NCBI RefSeq assembly: GCF_056712565.1
Contig: NZ_CM160072.1
Length of the DNA: 64,000 bases
Direction: 5' to 3' (one strand)
Made by a program: the position numbers. Each line of letters begins with the position of its first letter. The stretch's first letter is position 1. Shown here piece by piece: positions 3,001 through 12,000 of the stretch.

Positions 3001-6000
3001 TTAATCTCTGATTGCCAGATATCTTATAAATCATAATATGCTCCACTCCCCAGGGAAACGACCCTGGGGAAGGTAATTAGTGCTCTTTTATATATGCGGC
3101 TCTGTGACGTTCAAGTTCAATTGCACCACGATGTGATAACCAGCAAAAAATGATGCAACAAATAATACCGCAGCCAAGAAGATAAAATCCGCCATGCCAG
3201 CCAATATGATCGACCATAATACCAAACAGGCTGGTGCCCAGAGATGCACCGAAGATATAGCTCATAAAACCACGTAAACCTACCGCGGAGCCAACAGCAA
3301 AGCTGGGCACGATCTCCATAGTCTGAACGGAAGCCAGAAATTGTGGAACGTAAATCAGACAACCAACAATGGCAGCAAAAATTGTCACCATAAACAACGA
3401 TTCACTTTTCCAGTAGCCAATCAGGCAAATGAAAATCAGCGCCATACAAATCATCGCCAATGGCATACGACGCCCTTTAAACAGTTTGTCTGACAACCAA
3501 CCGGCAAGTAGCGTGGAAGGGATCGCGGCCCATTCAAAAAATAAAAATGCGACGCTCATTTGTTCTTTTGAAAAATGTTTCACCGTCAGCAGATAAATAG
3601 GCAACCAGCTAATCATCCCGAAGCGCACCATGTATACAAATACGTCAACCAGTGAGACATACCAGGCATTTTTATTGCGTAATACATAAGTGCAGAAAAT
3701 CTGAAAGGCGCTCATGTTTTCTGGTGCTTTTACCGTCTGTCGGGTATTCAGGACGACTTTTTCTTCCGGCATCATCTCTTCCAGAGAGGGTAGACCTTCC
3801 TGATGTGGGGAACCTTTACCGAGAATCAGCACAATTACCGCAAAAACGATGGCCACGCAGGCCGGAACGATATAACTCGCACTTTGCCAGTGCTCGCTGC
3901 CGAGTAGGGCAAAAGCGGCACCAACAATCGGTGCAACAATACCACCACCGATGTTATGAGAGATATTCCAGAAAGCACCAACCCGACCACGCTCCCGGCG
4001 AGGGAACCAGTTAGCAATAGTGATGAAAGAAGGACCAACGCCCATTCCCTGGAAAAGACCATTCAGAATAACCAATGCCGCAAAAATCCAGAATGCGGTG
4101 CTGAATCCCAGGCCAACGTTAACGATGGCACATAACACCAGCCCACACGCCATAAAGACTTTCGGACTGGCTTTATCGGCAAGGCTACTCATCACTCCTT
4201 TGCTGATACCATAGGCGATAAGCATACAGCTACTCAGTACGCCAATTTGTGTGGCGCTGAGATCTAATTGCTCTTTAAGATAAGGCGTTGATAAGGTGAA
4301 ATTATTACGCACGATATAGTATGCAAGATACCCCAGAAATACGCTAAGTAACGCCTGCATACGATAGCGACGATATGTCACCTGAATTTTCTCCGCCGGA
4401 ACACTATCCGCCGCTTGCCCCGTTTTAAATATTGATAACATGTCTTCACCTGTATTTTATATTGATATGAACATCAGGAGTATTCTGACAATGAGAGTTA
4501 TATAATTGAGATGAAATATCAAACTGAAAAAATGTGTCACAATTGACACAAAATAATAAAATCAAAGCCTGTTTTTGACCCATTTTATTGATGCATAGAC
4601 AGGGCAGATTTATGCTTTATCTGGTTTGTTGTTAGCATGTGCGGATATTAACAAATCTCATGCTGATTATCGGGTAATCTCTGATTAATATATTAACGGT
4701 CTCTTTGAACAGACGTGTTATCAGACGAAGTGTCTGAAACGGGTAATTTTTGTCTCAATGCGATTTTTGCGGTGTATTAATATTTATGACCTGGATCACA
4801 AACCGATTCTTTAGTTGGTGCGAAATCGGCATCAAAACCATGATTCTTTTACTGTTGTTGATGGATGTCGGGGCCGTCAGGGCTCAACGAAATGAACTGG
4901 TGATGGCCACCACATTCTCACCCGGAGCTATCGCGTGGATAATACAGCGCTGGCAAACAGAGCCTGAGTCGGTAATGATCCGTACGCTTAACCGCACCAG
5001 TGCCTCACTGGAACAGTTGCTTGATACGGCCAACGTAGAAAACGTCGATCTGATCCTGACTTCATCACCAATGCTGCTCCAGCACCTTCAGGAGCACCAG
5101 AAACTGGCCCCGTTTGATGATGCACCCGCAGAAAGCCAAAACCTGGTGCCGGAGTCGATCCGTGCAACCTCCGTTGCAGTAGCAATATCAGGTTTTGGTC
5201 TGCTTATTAATCGTCCTGCGCTTTCTGTAAAACACCTTCCTGCCCCTGCTGACTGGGACGATCTTGCTTTGCCGATCTATCAGGACGCTTTATTGATGAG
5301 TAGTCCGTCGCGTTCAGATACTAACCATTTAATGGTTGAGTCATTACTACAGCAAAAAGGCTGGGTGAAAGGATGGGAAACGTTGCTGACAAGTGCAGGA
5401 AACCTGGTGACAATCTCCTCCCGCAGTTTTGGCGTAGCCGATAAAATAAAAAGCGGACTCGGCGTTGCCGGCCCCGTTATCGATAACTATGCTAATTTAC
5501 TGTTAAATGACCCCCATATCTCTTTTACCTATTTCCCCCGGTCTGCGGTATCCCCCACCTACGTTGCAATTCTCAGGAAAAGCCCACACGCCGATGCAGC
5601 CCGTCGCTTTATTCACTACCTGTTAAGTCCGAAAGGACAGCGTATTCTGGCCGATGCCAATACAGGAAAATATCCGGTGACACCACTTGCCGCAGACAAT
5701 CCGCGGGCAACGCAACAACAGCTCCTGATGAATCAACCCCCGCTGAATTATCACCTTATCCTGAAACGTCAGCGTCTGGTGCAGCGCTTGTTTGATACGG
5801 CAATTAGCTTTCGGTTCGCACAGCTAAAAGATGCCTGGCGAGCGCTGCACAGTACCGAGGCACGCCTGAAGAAACCATTACCAGAAATACGTGCACTGTT
5901 AACACAAATGCCAGTTGCAGCGGCCAGTAGTGAAGATCCCGTCTGGCTGGCACAGTTCGATAACAAAAGCTTTGCCGAGCAGCAAATGATGGAATGGCAA

Positions 6001-9000: not shown

Positions 9001-12000
9001 CTCAAAGAGATGATGCGCCGCATGTGGCCAAATAATGTGCGAGAGCTGGCCAATGCAGCAGAACTATTTACTGTAGGAGTATTACCGCTGGCAGAAACAG
9101 CAAATCCGTTGATGCACGTCGGAACCCCGACACCGCTTGACAGACGAGTGGAGGACGCTGAGCGACAGATAATCACAGAGGCGCTTAATATCCATCAGGG
9201 GCGTATCAATGAGGTTGCTGAATATTTACAAATCCCACGGAAAAAACTCTATCTCAGAATGAAAAAATACGGTCTTAGTAAGGAGCATTATAAAATTTAA
9301 CCATCAGACTTGTGCGCTTGTTCATAATGTTATGTCATTGCCTGATGTTGATAAAAAGACGGACGCTCCCCCTGTAAGACCTGTCTCTTATACACAAGTC
9401 CCCACCCGGGGATTTGTGATGTCTGTCAGTCTGCTTTAGGGGGGGCTCTTTCCATCCGGTACTTTCCTTCCTCCCCGGTAGCCATTTTTTGAACTTTTTC
9501 TTCACCCGTTGATCTTCTCTTATATTTCATTTTATTCGACTCTGTTATGGTACTTTCTGATTGTTATTCATGGGCTAACGAGCAGTTTGGACATGCCCGT
9601 CTCGATGATCCGCGTAGTACACGACGCCTTGTATCACTGGCCTCTTCTCTCGCTCATGCCAGGTCGTGATCGATTCAGATGCCATTTTGCACCTTCAGAA
9701 TTTGAGCTTGCTGCAGTTGTTCCTGATAAGGATCTGGATAAATATGACGAGTATTTACCAGAGTCTTTGCTTGCGAAAGGGTAGGGGGCAAAGGCGTATG
9801 ATATAGAAAGAACGAGCATCTGGTTGCTGAAACACCTTCAGTGGACTGGATATATAGTCAGTGTATAAATGCTTGTTTATACCCTTATTTTTTTACTTAC
9901 CTGTGGACTTACTTGGCTTTAGTCCCGGAGTATTGCCAGGAGTATCTTTATTATCGCGTCGGCGTTGATCCGGTTTTCCTACCGACTTAGCAATTGGTTT
10001 TGGACCTGGTTTAAGACCCATGATAGTTATCCTTCGAGATGTAAGAGGAATGCCCTCAACATTGGTATATTCTATACTGAGAAATTTTTCAATGGAAATG
10101 TTCAACGGCCGAATGATTAACTTGATATTGTGAGCAATATCTTTTTTTGGCACAGAGCGAACCGTTAGATTGCGCGTATTTTTATGGAAGGAGATCATCC
10201 AATAACGGTTACTCACCGATCTTCTTCATGGTAATACGCACCTGTTTTATTAACATATAGAAAAATTACTCCGGCATGTTTTATCTTTTTGAAATCAGGA
10301 CATTTACCAGATCACTTAAAACTCTCTTTTGTTCTTCATCCTGAAGATATTGAATCCGGAATTTAATCTCTTCTGCCACCCGTCTTGTATCGGACTCATT
10401 AAGTATTTTTGTTATTCGCTGTCTCTGATGTTCAGGCTGGTCTTCCATATTTCGTAAAACCAGATGAAATAATATATCATAAAGTGCGCAATGCCATGAA
10501 TAACCATCATTGGTTAAAATAAGCTCCCAAACCCGCTCCTGCTCGGCAATAAGCTGCAGAACAAAGGACTCAACCTGTTCTGTTTGTTCGGGGACAACAC
10601 GGTATAGCGGAGCAATCACAGCAAAAGACAGTTCATTTAACCAGGATTCCGCTTCCTTCTCGCTCCTGAACGATGGACAGTTTTGTATTCTTCGTTCGTA
10701 TTCACGGGTAATCTGCTCCAGAATATCCTCCGGCGGTGTCAGCCACTTATTCCTGAGCAATACACTGGTTGATGGATGACAGCTGGCTATTTCAGCAATA
10801 ATTTCACGTAATGTCTCCGGGCTGAACTTCTTCAGCTGATTGTAGTGCTCCCGGGTAAAACCATGTTCATCGCATAAAAGTTGCCATGTCATTGACACAC
10901 TGTCCGCCATATCTTTCTTCATCATTAATACCTGTTACCTGAATATCAACAGACCGGTGTACCTTTTCTGAATATCTCCCCGGACGGGCTGGCAATCCCC
11001 ATTCGCCTCAGCGTGGCATCTGCAGCTTTCGCCACTTCGCTGATATCCAGCTTTTCAGGTAGCGGCGGGGACGATATCTGCGCCAGACAATAATTCCGGC
11101 GCAACAACAACCACTCCCGTTGTGCTTCTGTACATTCAACATTTCCCATAACAAAAAGCCAGCGGGCAGAAGCTCTGCGCCAGCAACCCGCCGCCTCCAG
11201 CTTCTGTGCAACCATGTCTTCCACGACTTCCGGGGTACTATTTTTCCTGCTCAAAACATCAACTCACTGAATAATACTCATATATGACGGTCTCAGCGAA
11301 CCGTCCATGCCGGGCTGAAATCCTCTTCCTGAAACAACTCCGTCAGTCCGCTAATCTGTTTCAGCCTCAGCACTTCATCCTGGTCCATCCCCAGGCTCTG
11401 TACCAATGCGTTCATCCGTCCAGCCCAGGCGTGACAGGTCCCTGACAATATCAGACATTGAGGTTATCTGGTGTTTACCCCTGGCCCGGTTATGCCGTAT
11501 GGTGGCCGCCATACGTGTGGCCTGTCCCTTTCTTTCCGGATTAATACAGGCCACTGGCAACCAGCCTTTCAGGCGTTTTCCTGTACCTGCTTCCCTGCCC
11601 AGTAACTGACGATGAAAACCATCCACCACCAGATAGGGGTTCTTCTCCGCCGACACCACCACGGGTTGGGTGAAACCATCTTTCTCCAGTGACTGCTTCA
11701 GCAGTTTCTTCTCACCCGGCGCCATGACATTGGGGTTATAATCGTTGGCCACCACCTCATCTGCTTTCACCCACAGCACACAGTCCACAGGCTCCTGTGC
11801 AAAAGGGCTGACTTCATGAAGTACCCTGCGCAGATGATTCAGAGCCTGTATAGTCTCTTTTTCTGATCGTTCCTGGCTGAAGTACTGACGAATCATGTCA
11901 CTCAGTACCTCCACTTCAGGTGTCACAGAATCCCCCATTCATTCCTCCTTTCCTTCATACGCTGCAGGTAACGTTCATAGTGCCGGGGTTTGTTCGGGCT

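What the first reader, a model, noticed from the sequence alone, without database searches (positions are those of the whole stretch)
3077..9784. Salmonella-type pgtP/pgtCBA phosphoglycerate transport locus carried inside the island between IS remnants
Seen in sequence: complete transporter, periplasmic modulator, sensor kinase and sigma-54-type regulator, bracketed by a degenerate IS2-like element on the left and an IS50-like remnant on the right. Established knowledge: this system takes up phosphoenolpyruvate and 2- and 3-phosphoglycerate in Salmonella and is not part of the E. coli K-12 backbone. Inference: IS-mediated capture of a metabolic module into a virulence island.
Basis: partly seen in the sequence, partly recalled or inferred. 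Interest (0 to 1): 0.45.

Follow-up and report, generated by a model that had tools for sequence, protein, structure and literature searches.

The report
Known phosphoglycerate uptake locus in ExPEC island
This is an intact copy of the well-known Pgt system for importing phosphoglycerate and phosphoenolpyruvate, already documented on the pheV pathogenicity island of extraintestinal E. coli, so the finding is correct but ordinary.

Summary
Window 3077-9300 carries four intact genes: pgtP (-), then pgtC, pgtB and pgtA (+). PgtP, PgtB and PgtA each pass NCBI's curated equivalog cut-offs. The locus lies in a tRNA-Phe (pheV) island that is 99.96-100% identical to APEC O1. An inactivated, full-length IS2-like element (1336-2671) flanks it on the left. 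A 280-bp ISEc13/IS50-like stub (9375-9656) flanks it on the right.

This is already known. Papers on GI-pheV of strain 536 and of the tia/pap/pgt/ireA island type list pgtABCP. PDB 3N70 is the central domain of this same PgtA.

Three refinements:
- The locus is no closer to Salmonella (75% nucleotide identity) than to Klebsiella or Citrobacter. It is an Escherichia-specific allele, found in 464 of 5,426 complete genomes.
- PgtA belongs to the NtrC family only by descent. In every species checked it lacks GAFTGA, the Walker A lysine and the Walker B Asp-Glu, and no -24/-12 promoter is present. It probably acts without sigma-54.
- The flanking elements belong to different IS families, so this is not a composite transposon. 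IS-mediated capture is plausible but not shown.

The parts
1336..2671 (+). IS2-like insertion sequence (IS3 family). It is full length (1336 bp) with both terminal inverted repeats (IRL 1336-1377, IRR 2631-2671), and the transposase is inactivated by frameshifts.
   Evidence: tblastn against K-12 IS2: InsC 74.5% aa over residues 16-121; InsD 59% and then 70% aa in two different frames; 69% nucleotide identity to IS2A; the first 17 bases match the IS2 left end. RefSeq annotates an 'IS3 family transposase, frameshifted' here. The 5-bp flanks, AATAC and AGTTT, do not form a direct repeat.
2669..3034 (-). Small ORF (121 aa, hypothetical) that travels with the pgt genes in E. coli only. Its stop codon is supplied by the last three bases of the IS2-like element, so it is probably a truncated gene or not a gene.
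   Evidence: Annotated as hypothetical in APEC O1 and 536. No Pfam match. Absent next to pgtP in all 24 loci from other species. 7 nonsynonymous against 1 synonymous difference between the two E. coli alleles. Stop-codon and IRR coordinates.
3077..4441 (-). pgtP: organophosphate:phosphate antiporter of the major facilitator superfamily, the phosphoglycerate/PEP transporter.
   Evidence: NF047787 PgtP equivalog, 884 bits (cut-off 750), residues 1-448 of 451 profile positions. GlpT and UhpT models score below their cut-offs. 87-91% aa identity to orthologs in other genera. dN/dS 0.06 against the 536 allele.
4442..4785 (.). Divergent control region between pgtP and pgtC, with sequence blocks conserved across genera. 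These include an inverted repeat TGTGTCA-N4-TGACACA at 4533-4550, a further TTTTTGAC half-site at about 4572-4579, TGTGCGGATATTAACAAAT at about 4638-4656 and AAACGGGTAA-TTTTGTCTCAA at about 4739-4760.
   Evidence: MAFFT alignment of the intergenic region from 15 genomes. The hairpin was picked up at 4533-4550. No sigma-54 -24/-12 match with 3 or fewer mismatches was found. The assignment as regulator binding sites is inference.
4786..6057 (+). pgtC: periplasmic solute-binding-type protein that modulates the kinase. RefSeq starts it at 4840. The ATG at 4786 is conserved in the other genera and gives a signal peptide with a charged N-region.
   Evidence: Pfam SBP_bac_6 E=2e-28 and SBP_bac_11 E=3e-16. 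Annotated pgtC. 76-86% aa identity to orthologs. Conserved ATG block ATATTTATGAACGGGATCACAAAC. Translation from 4786 is MTWITNRFFSWCEIGIKTMILLLLLMDVGAVRAQ.
6054..8063 (+). pgtB: membrane sensor histidine kinase.
   Evidence: NF047794 equivalog, 1068 bits (cut-off 1000). HAMP, HisKA and HATPase_c domains. 78-84% aa identity to orthologs. dN/dS 0.09.
8053..9300 (+). pgtA: response regulator descended from the NtrC family (receiver, degenerate AAA+ domain, Fis-type HTH). It activates pgtP.
   Evidence: NF047793 equivalog, 730 bits (cut-off 650). Pfam architecture. Residues 140-284 are identical to PDB 3N70 'Transport activator'. Alignment with E. coli NtrC shows the GAFTGA segment deleted, GTGR in place of GTGK, and LVLSH in place of LFLDE.
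9375..9656 (+). Stub of an IS4-family element of the IS50/ISEc13 type: the left end, with terminal sequence CTGTCTCTTATACACAAGT (9381-9399), and the first 37 codons of the transposase (9547-9657).
   Evidence: 87% nucleotide identity over 295 bp to the left end of ISEc13, and 92% aa identity over 37 residues to its transposase. RefSeq annotates 'transposase DNA-binding-containing protein, partial'. The terminal sequence has one mismatch to the Tn5 outside end, which I quoted from memory.

Best explanation
This is an intact, selectively maintained copy of the enterobacterial Pgt system, carried as a 6.6-kb cargo module of the pheV genomic island of ExPEC-type E. coli. By homology with the Salmonella system, the mechanism is as follows. 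Periplasmic PgtC and the membrane kinase PgtB sense external 3-phosphoglycerate, 2-phosphoglycerate or phosphoenolpyruvate. PgtB phosphorylates the receiver aspartate of PgtA. PgtA binds the divergent intergenic region and switches on pgtP. PgtP then imports these glycolytic intermediates in exchange for phosphate. This study shows gene identity, integrity, synteny, purifying selection, island context and IS flanks. Substrates, the signalling order and the binding sites are inferred from homology. A further inference from sequence is that PgtA activates transcription without sigma-54 and without ATP hydrolysis, because its AAA+ domain has lost every motif needed for either. The module was probably placed and reshuffled by IS-associated recombination, but it is not a transposon in its present form.
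For: Curated equivalog models are passed for PgtP, PgtB and PgtA, while PgtP falls below the GlpT and UhpT cut-offs. Domain architectures fit the expected roles. The divergent pgtP / pgtC-B-A arrangement is the same in 24 loci from Klebsiella, Citrobacter, Salmonella, Pseudocitrobacter, Enterobacter and Cedecea, with 75-91% aa identity. None of the four genes has an internal stop. dN/dS between the two E. coli alleles is 0.06 for pgtP, 0.42 for pgtC, 0.09 for pgtB and 0.11 for pgtA. RefSeq names the genes pgtP/C/B/A in APEC O1, S88, ATCC 11775, 536 and NC101. The island starts at tRNA-Phe with an integrase. The literature already records pgt in GI-pheV (PMC11537424, PMC7387560, PMC4232414, bioRxiv 10.1101/2024.09.04.611154). 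For sigma-54 independence: Pfam PF00158 matches only model positions 1-55 of 168. The alignment with NtrC shows a 19-residue deletion removing GAFTGA, an 11-residue deletion further on, Walker A GTGR and Walker B SH or SR, in E. coli and all 12 other orthologs. No -24/-12 element was found in the intergenic region. A review listing the 13 Salmonella enhancer-binding proteins never mentions pgt.
Against: No experiment was run. Transport and induction are not demonstrated for the E. coli allele in anything I could read. pgtC shows weaker constraint (dN/dS 0.42, from 19 differences). Its annotated start lacks a normal signal-peptide N-region unless the upstream ATG is used. Sigma-54 independence rests on missing motifs and on a simple consensus scan. 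I could not retrieve the original Salmonella promoter papers to confirm the promoter type. The sigma-70 consensus scan was uninformative (12 sites found, 11.2 expected).
Confidence: 0.88

Rival explanations
1. PgtA is a working sigma-54 enhancer-binding protein and pgtP is a sigma-54 promoter, which is the literal reading of 'sigma-54-type regulator'.
For: PgtA matches Pfam 'Sigma-54 interaction domain' families, has the AAA lid and Fis-type HTH of NtrC relatives, and its nearest NCBIfam neighbours are NtrC and NtrX. A weak GG-N10-GC match (TGGTTTGTTGTTAGCA at 4622, 4 mismatches) faces pgtC.
Against: GAFTGA is deleted. The Walker A lysine is arginine and the Walker B Asp-Glu is Ser-His, in all orthologs examined. 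PF00158 aligns only to its first 55 positions. No site with 3 or fewer mismatches lies in the intergenic region, and none faces pgtP. The position of the 4622 match is not conserved in the cross-species alignment. pgt is absent from the review of Salmonella's 13 enhancer-binding proteins.
Confidence: 0.07
2. The locus is decaying passenger DNA with no function in this E. coli, trapped between dead IS elements.
For: It is surrounded by pseudogenes and IS debris: a frameshifted IS2-like element, the ISEc13 stub, a helicase fragment and a frameshifted ibrB-like gene. Some E. coli genomes and plasmids carry truncated or IS-interrupted copies. The C. koseri NCTC10786 locus looks disrupted.
Against: All four reading frames are full length. 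430 genomes keep at least 80% of the locus at 95-100% identity. Differences between the two E. coli alleles are mostly synonymous in pgtP, pgtB and pgtA. Regulatory blocks in the intergenic region are conserved across genera and retained here.
Confidence: 0.05
3. The module was recently transferred from Salmonella.
For: The system was first defined in Salmonella, and gene order is identical.
Against: Identity to Salmonella enterica subsp. diarizonae is only 74.7% at the nucleotide level and 81-91% at the protein level. That is slightly lower than to Citrobacter koseri (77.3% nt), C. amalonaticus and Klebsiella grimontii (76%). Homology with every other genus stops at the outer ends of the two outermost genes (about 3105-9300), so no shared flanks point to a donor. 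In the plasmid collection the E. coli-type allele occurs only in Escherichia.
Confidence: 0.03

Closest known systems
Salmonella enterica pgtP-pgtCBA phosphoglycerate transport system (PgtP antiporter; PgtC/PgtB/PgtA regulation)
   Same: Same four genes, the same divergent arrangement with overlapping pgtC/B/A junctions, the same domain architectures, and the same degenerate AAA+ domain in PgtA. Curated equivalog models are passed.
   Different: 81-91% aa and about 75% nt identity (measured against subsp. diarizonae). The locus is carried on a tRNA-Phe island between IS elements. From memory of the LT2 map, Salmonella has the chromosomal pgt locus next to pgtE; this was not tested here. E. coli has an extra small ORF fused to an IS end downstream of pgtP.
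pgtABCP module of GI-pheV / PAI V of uropathogenic E. coli 536, and of the intP4.3-type GI-pheV (tia, pap, pgt, ireA, ibr)
   Same: The window matches the intP4.3-type gene content (tia, pap, pgt, ibr-like, ireA, yee module) and is 100% identical to APEC O1, S88 and ATCC 11775 over the 14 kb compared. The 536 module shares 2631-9310 at 98.5% identity, including the same left junction with an IS2-like end.
   Different: In 536 the neighbours are pix fimbriae and an IS21 remnant rather than pap and the ISEc13 stub. The IS2-like sequence there lies in the opposite orientation and is only 84% identical.
NtrX and other NtrC-family regulators that lack GAFTGA
   Same: The best full-length PDB match to PgtA is NtrX (5m7n), and the two align across the same shortened region between Walker A and Walker B. 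That NtrX is known to lack GAFTGA is from my memory.
   Different: PgtA has additionally lost the Walker A lysine and the Walker B acidic pair, and has a second deletion. It is only distantly related in sequence.
GlpT and UhpT/UhpABC organophosphate:phosphate antiporter systems of E. coli K-12
   Same: Same transporter superfamily and exchange mechanism. Induction by an external substrate through a two-component system, as with Uhp.
   Different: PgtP scores 368 bits on the GlpT model (cut-off 632) and 271 on UhpT (cut-off 497), so it is not a member of either family. The regulators are of a different type: an NtrC-derived regulator and a solute-binding protein.

Membership tests
PgtP phosphoglycerate transporter (NCBIfam NF047787 equivalog) | Whole-protein score above the curated cut-off, and better than the GlpT, UhpT and UhpC models | tested here: met
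   884 bits against a cut-off of 750, covering 1-448 of 451 profile positions. GlpT 368 (<632), UhpT 271 (<497), UhpC 237 (<564).
PgtP phosphoglycerate transporter | Transports 3-PG, 2-PG and PEP in exchange for phosphate | not testable with these tools
   Requires growth or uptake assays.
Pgt regulatory system (PgtC/PgtB/PgtA) | PgtB and PgtA pass the curated equivalog cut-offs | tested here: met
   PgtB 1068 (cut-off 1000); PgtA 730 (cut-off 650).
Pgt regulatory system (PgtC/PgtB/PgtA) | Divergent pgtP next to a pgtC-pgtB-pgtA operon | tested here: met
   Same order and orientation in 24 loci from six genera. Here pgtC/pgtB overlap by 4 nt and pgtB/pgtA by 11 nt.
Pgt regulatory system (PgtC/PgtB/PgtA) | PgtC is an exported solute-binding-type protein | tested here: inconclusive
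   The SBP fold is clear. No NCBIfam equivalog was hit, only weak PhnS matches. A signal peptide is plausible only from the conserved upstream ATG at 4786, and no signal-peptide predictor was available.
Pgt regulatory system (PgtC/PgtB/PgtA) | Kinase with HisKA and HATPase_c domains, and regulator with a receiver aspartate | tested here: met
   HAMP, HisKA and HATPase_c in PgtB. In PgtA, the 'VLSDVCMPG' segment aligns with the 'LLSDIRMPG' phospho-acceptor segment of NtrC.
Sigma-54-dependent enhancer-binding proteins (bEBP) | GAFTGA loop that contacts sigma-54 | tested here: not met
   No G[AS][FY][TS]G[AG] motif is present. There is a 19-residue gap opposite the GAFTGA segment of NtrC, in E. 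coli PgtA and 12 orthologs.
Sigma-54-dependent enhancer-binding proteins (bEBP) | Intact Walker A (GxxGxGK) and Walker B (hhhhDE) motifs for ATP hydrolysis | tested here: not met
   GAPGTGRM and LVLSH in PgtA, against GESGTGKE and LFLDE in NtrC. PF00158 is matched only at positions 1-55 of 168.
Sigma-54-dependent enhancer-binding proteins (bEBP) | A -24/-12 (GG-N10-GC) promoter in front of the regulated gene | tested here: not met
   No site with 3 or fewer mismatches to TGGCACG-N4-TTGCW lies in 4442-4839 on either strand, and none faces pgtP. This was a consensus scan only.
IS2 group of the IS3 family (left flank) | Terminal inverted repeats plus orfA/orfB related to IS2 InsC/InsD | tested here: met
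   IRL and IRR found. InsC 74.5% aa and InsD 59-70% aa identity. The element is 1336 bp against 1331 bp for IS2. The transposase is frameshifted, so the element is inactive.
IS50-like (IS4 family) element (right flank) | IS50-type terminal sequence and a Tn5-type transposase N-terminal DNA-binding domain | tested here: met
   87% nucleotide identity to the ISEc13 left end, and 37 aa at 92% identity to its transposase. The end CTGTCTCTTATACACAAGT is at 9381-9399. Only about 280 bp survive.
Composite transposon | Two copies of the same IS bracketing the cargo, with a target-site duplication | tested here: not met
   The flanking elements belong to different families (IS3 and IS4). The IS2-like element has no matching 5-bp flanks. 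No second IS50-type end occurs in the window.

The most novel reading that the evidence does not exclude
PgtA-type regulators are a conserved, ATPase-dead, sigma-54-independent offshoot of the NtrC family. They would activate an ordinary promoter through the conserved GTGTCA-type repeats between pgtP and pgtC. The island-borne E. coli copy would then give ExPEC and AIEC strains the advantage described for Salmonella in macrophages, which is feeding on host 3-phosphoglycerate and PEP. Neither point appears to have been tested for E. coli in the papers I could search.
Probability: 0.4. Interest if true: 0.3.

Novelty: already known. Interest (0 to 1): 0.1.

Why it matters
The locus adds a route for using host glycolytic intermediates to a virulence island. 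In Salmonella, PgtP supports replication inside macrophages (PMC7873081), so it may be a fitness factor for ExPEC and AIEC as well. Its presence on GI-pheV is already catalogued, so the finding adds no new biology. The useful points are corrections: the regulator should not be counted as a sigma-54 activator, the pgtC start is probably mis-annotated by 18 codons, and Salmonella is not the evident donor.

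Tried and rejected
- **Sigma-54 promoter scan of the intergenic region.** No credible site was found.
- **Sigma-70 promoter and terminator consensus scan of 2600-9900.** Counts did not exceed the shuffled controls (12 against 11.2, and 9 against 6.9), so it was uninformative.
- **Pfam scan of the 121-aa ORF downstream of pgtP.** No match. My guess from reading the sequence, that it was a YegP/DUF1508-like protein, is not supported.
- **NCBIfam scan of the 91-aa ORF at 9509-9784.** No match, and the ORF was rejected as a gene.
- **Original Salmonella pgt papers.** I tried to read PMC177176, but it is not held. 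The promoter type in Salmonella could therefore not be checked against the literature.
- **Genome-collection scan with PgtB.** It returned Salmonella subsp. diarizonae but not subsp. enterica or any E. coli. The Salmonella identity figures are for diarizonae only.
- **Recent transfer from Salmonella, GlpT/Uhp identity and composite transposon.** All three were considered and rejected on the numbers given above.

Full report
**What is in the sequence.** ORF listing shows one long ORF on the minus strand (3077-4441) and three consecutive, overlapping ORFs on the plus strand (4750/4840-6057, 6054-8063, 8044/8053-9300).

- Three of the proteins pass the whole-protein cut-offs of NCBI's curated equivalog models: PgtP 884 bits (cut-off 750), PgtB 1068 (1000) and PgtA 730 (650).
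- The transporter falls well short of the GlpT (368 against 632), UhpT (271 against 497) and UhpC models.
- The fourth protein, PgtC, has a periplasmic solute-binding fold (SBP_bac_6, E=2e-28).
- PgtB has HAMP, HisKA and HATPase_c domains.
- PgtA has a receiver domain, a 'Sigma54_activ_2' domain, an AAA lid and a Fis-type HTH.

**Where the window comes from.**

- The first 14 kb are 100% identical to the chromosomes of APEC O1, S88, ATCC 11775 and many other ExPEC-type E. coli. RefSeq annotates the genes there as pgtP, pgtC, pgtB and pgtA.
- The rest of the window is collinear with APEC O1 at 99.96% identity.
- In APEC O1 the region is part of an island that begins at tRNA-Phe with a tyrosine integrase. 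It carries tia, the pap operon, the pgt genes, an ibr-like pair, ireA, a yee/CP4-44-like module, the K1 capsule genes and the gsp type II secretion genes.

**Comparison with other species.** A scan of one genome per species with PgtB returned 25 loci in Klebsiella, Citrobacter, Pseudocitrobacter, Enterobacter, Cedecea and Salmonella enterica subsp. diarizonae, plus one contig labelled Serratia.

- All of them have the same divergent pgtP / pgtC-B-A arrangement. Amino-acid identities are 87-91% for PgtP, 76-86% for PgtC, 78-84% for PgtB and 75-86% for PgtA.
- Salmonella diarizonae gives 91/84/82/81% aa and 74.7% nt identity. That is slightly lower than C. koseri (77.3% nt), K. grimontii and C. 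amalonaticus (76%).
- Nucleotide homology with every other genus is confined to about 3105-9300, which is just the four genes and their intergenic region.
- 'Salmonella-type' is therefore correct as orthology, but no donor is indicated.

**Distribution within E. coli.**

- 464 of 5,426 complete genomes carry the locus: 129 at 99% identity or more (this island type) and 335 at 95-99% (for example UPEC 536 and NC101). A few copies are on plasmids.
- In the plasmid collection the allele occurs in 10 records, all Escherichia.
- In strain 536 the locus is also in an island, next to fimbrial genes and IS remnants.
- The 536 island shares window 2631-9310 at 98.5% identity without gaps.
- Between these two alleles the substitutions are mostly synonymous in pgtP, pgtB and pgtA (dN/dS 0.06, 0.09 and 0.11). 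They are less so in pgtC (0.42). None of the genes has an internal stop. The locus is therefore under purifying selection rather than decaying.

**The flanks.**

- *Left.* 1336-2671 is a full-length IS2-like element with both terminal inverted repeats. It shows 74.5% aa identity to IS2 InsC, 59-70% to InsD in two frames, and 69% nt identity to IS2A. It is an inactivated relative of IS2 rather than a fragment. Its 5-bp flanks differ (AATAC and AGTTT), so it is not a simple insertion in its present context.
- *Left junction in 536.* Strain 536 has the same junction: the inverted repeat followed by AGTTTTTTCAG. However, the IS2-like sequence behind it lies in the opposite orientation and is only 84% identical.
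- *Right.* The shared E. coli module ends 10 bp after the pgtA stop codon. From 9375 to 9656 there is a stub 87% identical to the left end of ISEc13. It has the terminal sequence CTGTCTCTTATACACAAGT, which has one mismatch to the Tn5 outside end as I remember it. It also carries the first 37 codons of the transposase at 92% identity.
- *Not a composite transposon.* The two flanking elements belong to different IS families, and no second IS50-type end is present in the window. IS-associated recombination is a reasonable inference for how the module was placed, but no event can be reconstructed.

**The regulator.** PgtA was aligned with E. coli K-12 NtrC and with 12 orthologs from other genera. 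Every PgtA, including the Salmonella one, shows these differences from NtrC:

- a 19-residue gap where NtrC has ELFGHEKGAFTGA;
- an 11-residue gap further on;
- GTGR(M) in place of the Walker A GTGK(E);
- S-H or S-R in place of the Walker B D-E.

Three other results agree with this:

- Pfam's main sigma-54 interaction model aligns only over its first 55 of 168 positions.
- No -24/-12 element with 3 or fewer mismatches lies in the intergenic region.
[quoted passage not shown] The central domain of this exact protein has a solved structure, PDB 3N70, which is 100% identical over residues 140-284. The nearest full-length structure is NtrX. I conclude that PgtA is an NtrC-family descendant that very probably activates transcription without sigma-54 or ATP hydrolysis. 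This is inference from sequence. It applies to the whole Pgt family, not to this window in particular.

**Control region.** The cross-genus alignment of the pgtP-pgtC intergenic region shows conserved blocks:

- an inverted repeat TGTGTCA-N4-TGACACA at 4533-4550;
- a further TTTTTGAC about 20 bp away;
- TGTGCGGATATTAACAAAT near 4638;
- a long block from about 4739 to 4803, which includes an ATG at 4786.

That ATG is in frame with pgtC and conserved in the other genera. It adds 18 residues containing Arg and Lys ahead of the hydrophobic stretch. It is therefore a better start for an exported protein than the annotated ATG at 4840. Assigning the repeats to PgtA binding is conjecture.

**What is already known.**

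- The pheV-island paper describes pgt in the intP4.3-type island together with tia, pap, ireA and ibr, and describes pgtABCP in 536 GI-pheV (PMC11537424).
- Other papers mention the phosphoglycerate transporter system of the 536 pheV island (PMC7387560).
- pgtABCP is listed among island-borne fitness factors of ExPEC (PMC4232414).
- It is also recorded in AIEC and other clinical strains and in a pig ExPEC.
- In Salmonella, PgtP-mediated uptake of host glycolytic intermediates supports replication in macrophages (PMC7873081).

**Verdict.** The finding is a correct identification of an ordinary, already catalogued locus. Interest is low. The modest new points are the degenerate state of PgtA, the likely pgtC start at 4786, the exact module borders (2672-9310), and the absence of any evident donor.

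Noticed in passing
window 4786-4839: An in-frame ATG 54 nt upstream of the annotated pgtC start lies in a block (ATATTTATGAACGGGATCACAAAC) conserved across the other genera aligned. It gives PgtC a normal charged signal-peptide N-region, so the RefSeq start at 4840 is probably 18 codons too short. The block is more conserved than the coding sequence that follows, so it may also be a DNA-level regulatory element.
   Followed up: partly
window 2669-2671 (junction of the 121-aa ORF and the IS2-like right end): The stop codon of the hypothetical ORF downstream of pgtP is formed by the last three bases of the IS2-like inverted repeat. The ORF has no Pfam match, is absent from all other genera, and shows 7 nonsynonymous against 1 synonymous change between E. 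coli alleles. It looks like a gene truncated by the IS, or a non-gene.
   Followed up: partly
L027 (UPEC 536) 7195-7600 versus window 1330-2671: The two E. coli island types share exactly the same junction between an IS2-like inverted repeat and the pgt module. The IS2-like body lies in opposite orientations and is only 84% identical. This suggests inversion or IS-IS recombination at this border and is unexplained.
   Followed up: partly
window 4533-4580: A conserved inverted repeat TGTGTCA-N4-TGACACA, plus a third TTTTTGAC half-site about 20 bp away, sits roughly 90-140 bp upstream of the pgtP start codon in the genera aligned. It is a candidate regulator (PgtA) binding site.
   Followed up: no
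L024 (Citrobacter koseri NCTC10786) 7015-13248: The pgt locus of this strain appears disrupted. PgtP and PgtB align only in part, and the PgtA translation contains a stop or frameshift near its C-terminal HTH.
   Followed up: no
window 11294-13156 (-), by correspondence with APEC O1: An ibrA/ibrB-like pair (a phosphoadenosine phosphosulfate reductase family protein plus a frameshifted IbrB-like gene) lies close to the pgt module, together with a PerC-family regulator (10946-11215).
   Followed up: no
window 9692-9784 (+): A 30-codon C-terminal fragment annotated as an ATP-dependent helicase lies directly after the ISEc13 stub. It is further evidence of successive deletions at this border.
   Followed up: no
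L027 (UPEC 536) about 14440-14480: A short tandem repeat (CTCCACT, about six copies) lies downstream of pgtA in the 536 island. The window has unrelated sequence at that position.
   Followed up: no
L004 (contig labelled Serratia marcescens): This contig carries a pgt locus as close to the E. coli genes (83-88% aa) as the Klebsiella oxytoca-group loci are. The species label may be wrong, or the locus may have been transferred.
   Followed up: no
plasmid hits H86-H95: The E. coli-type pgt module (98% identity, starting inside the 121-aa ORF) occurs on about ten Escherichia plasmids of roughly 100-295 kb, seven of them predicted conjugative. Some copies are interrupted by IS1 or IS600, so the module also moves on plasmids.
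   Followed up: partly
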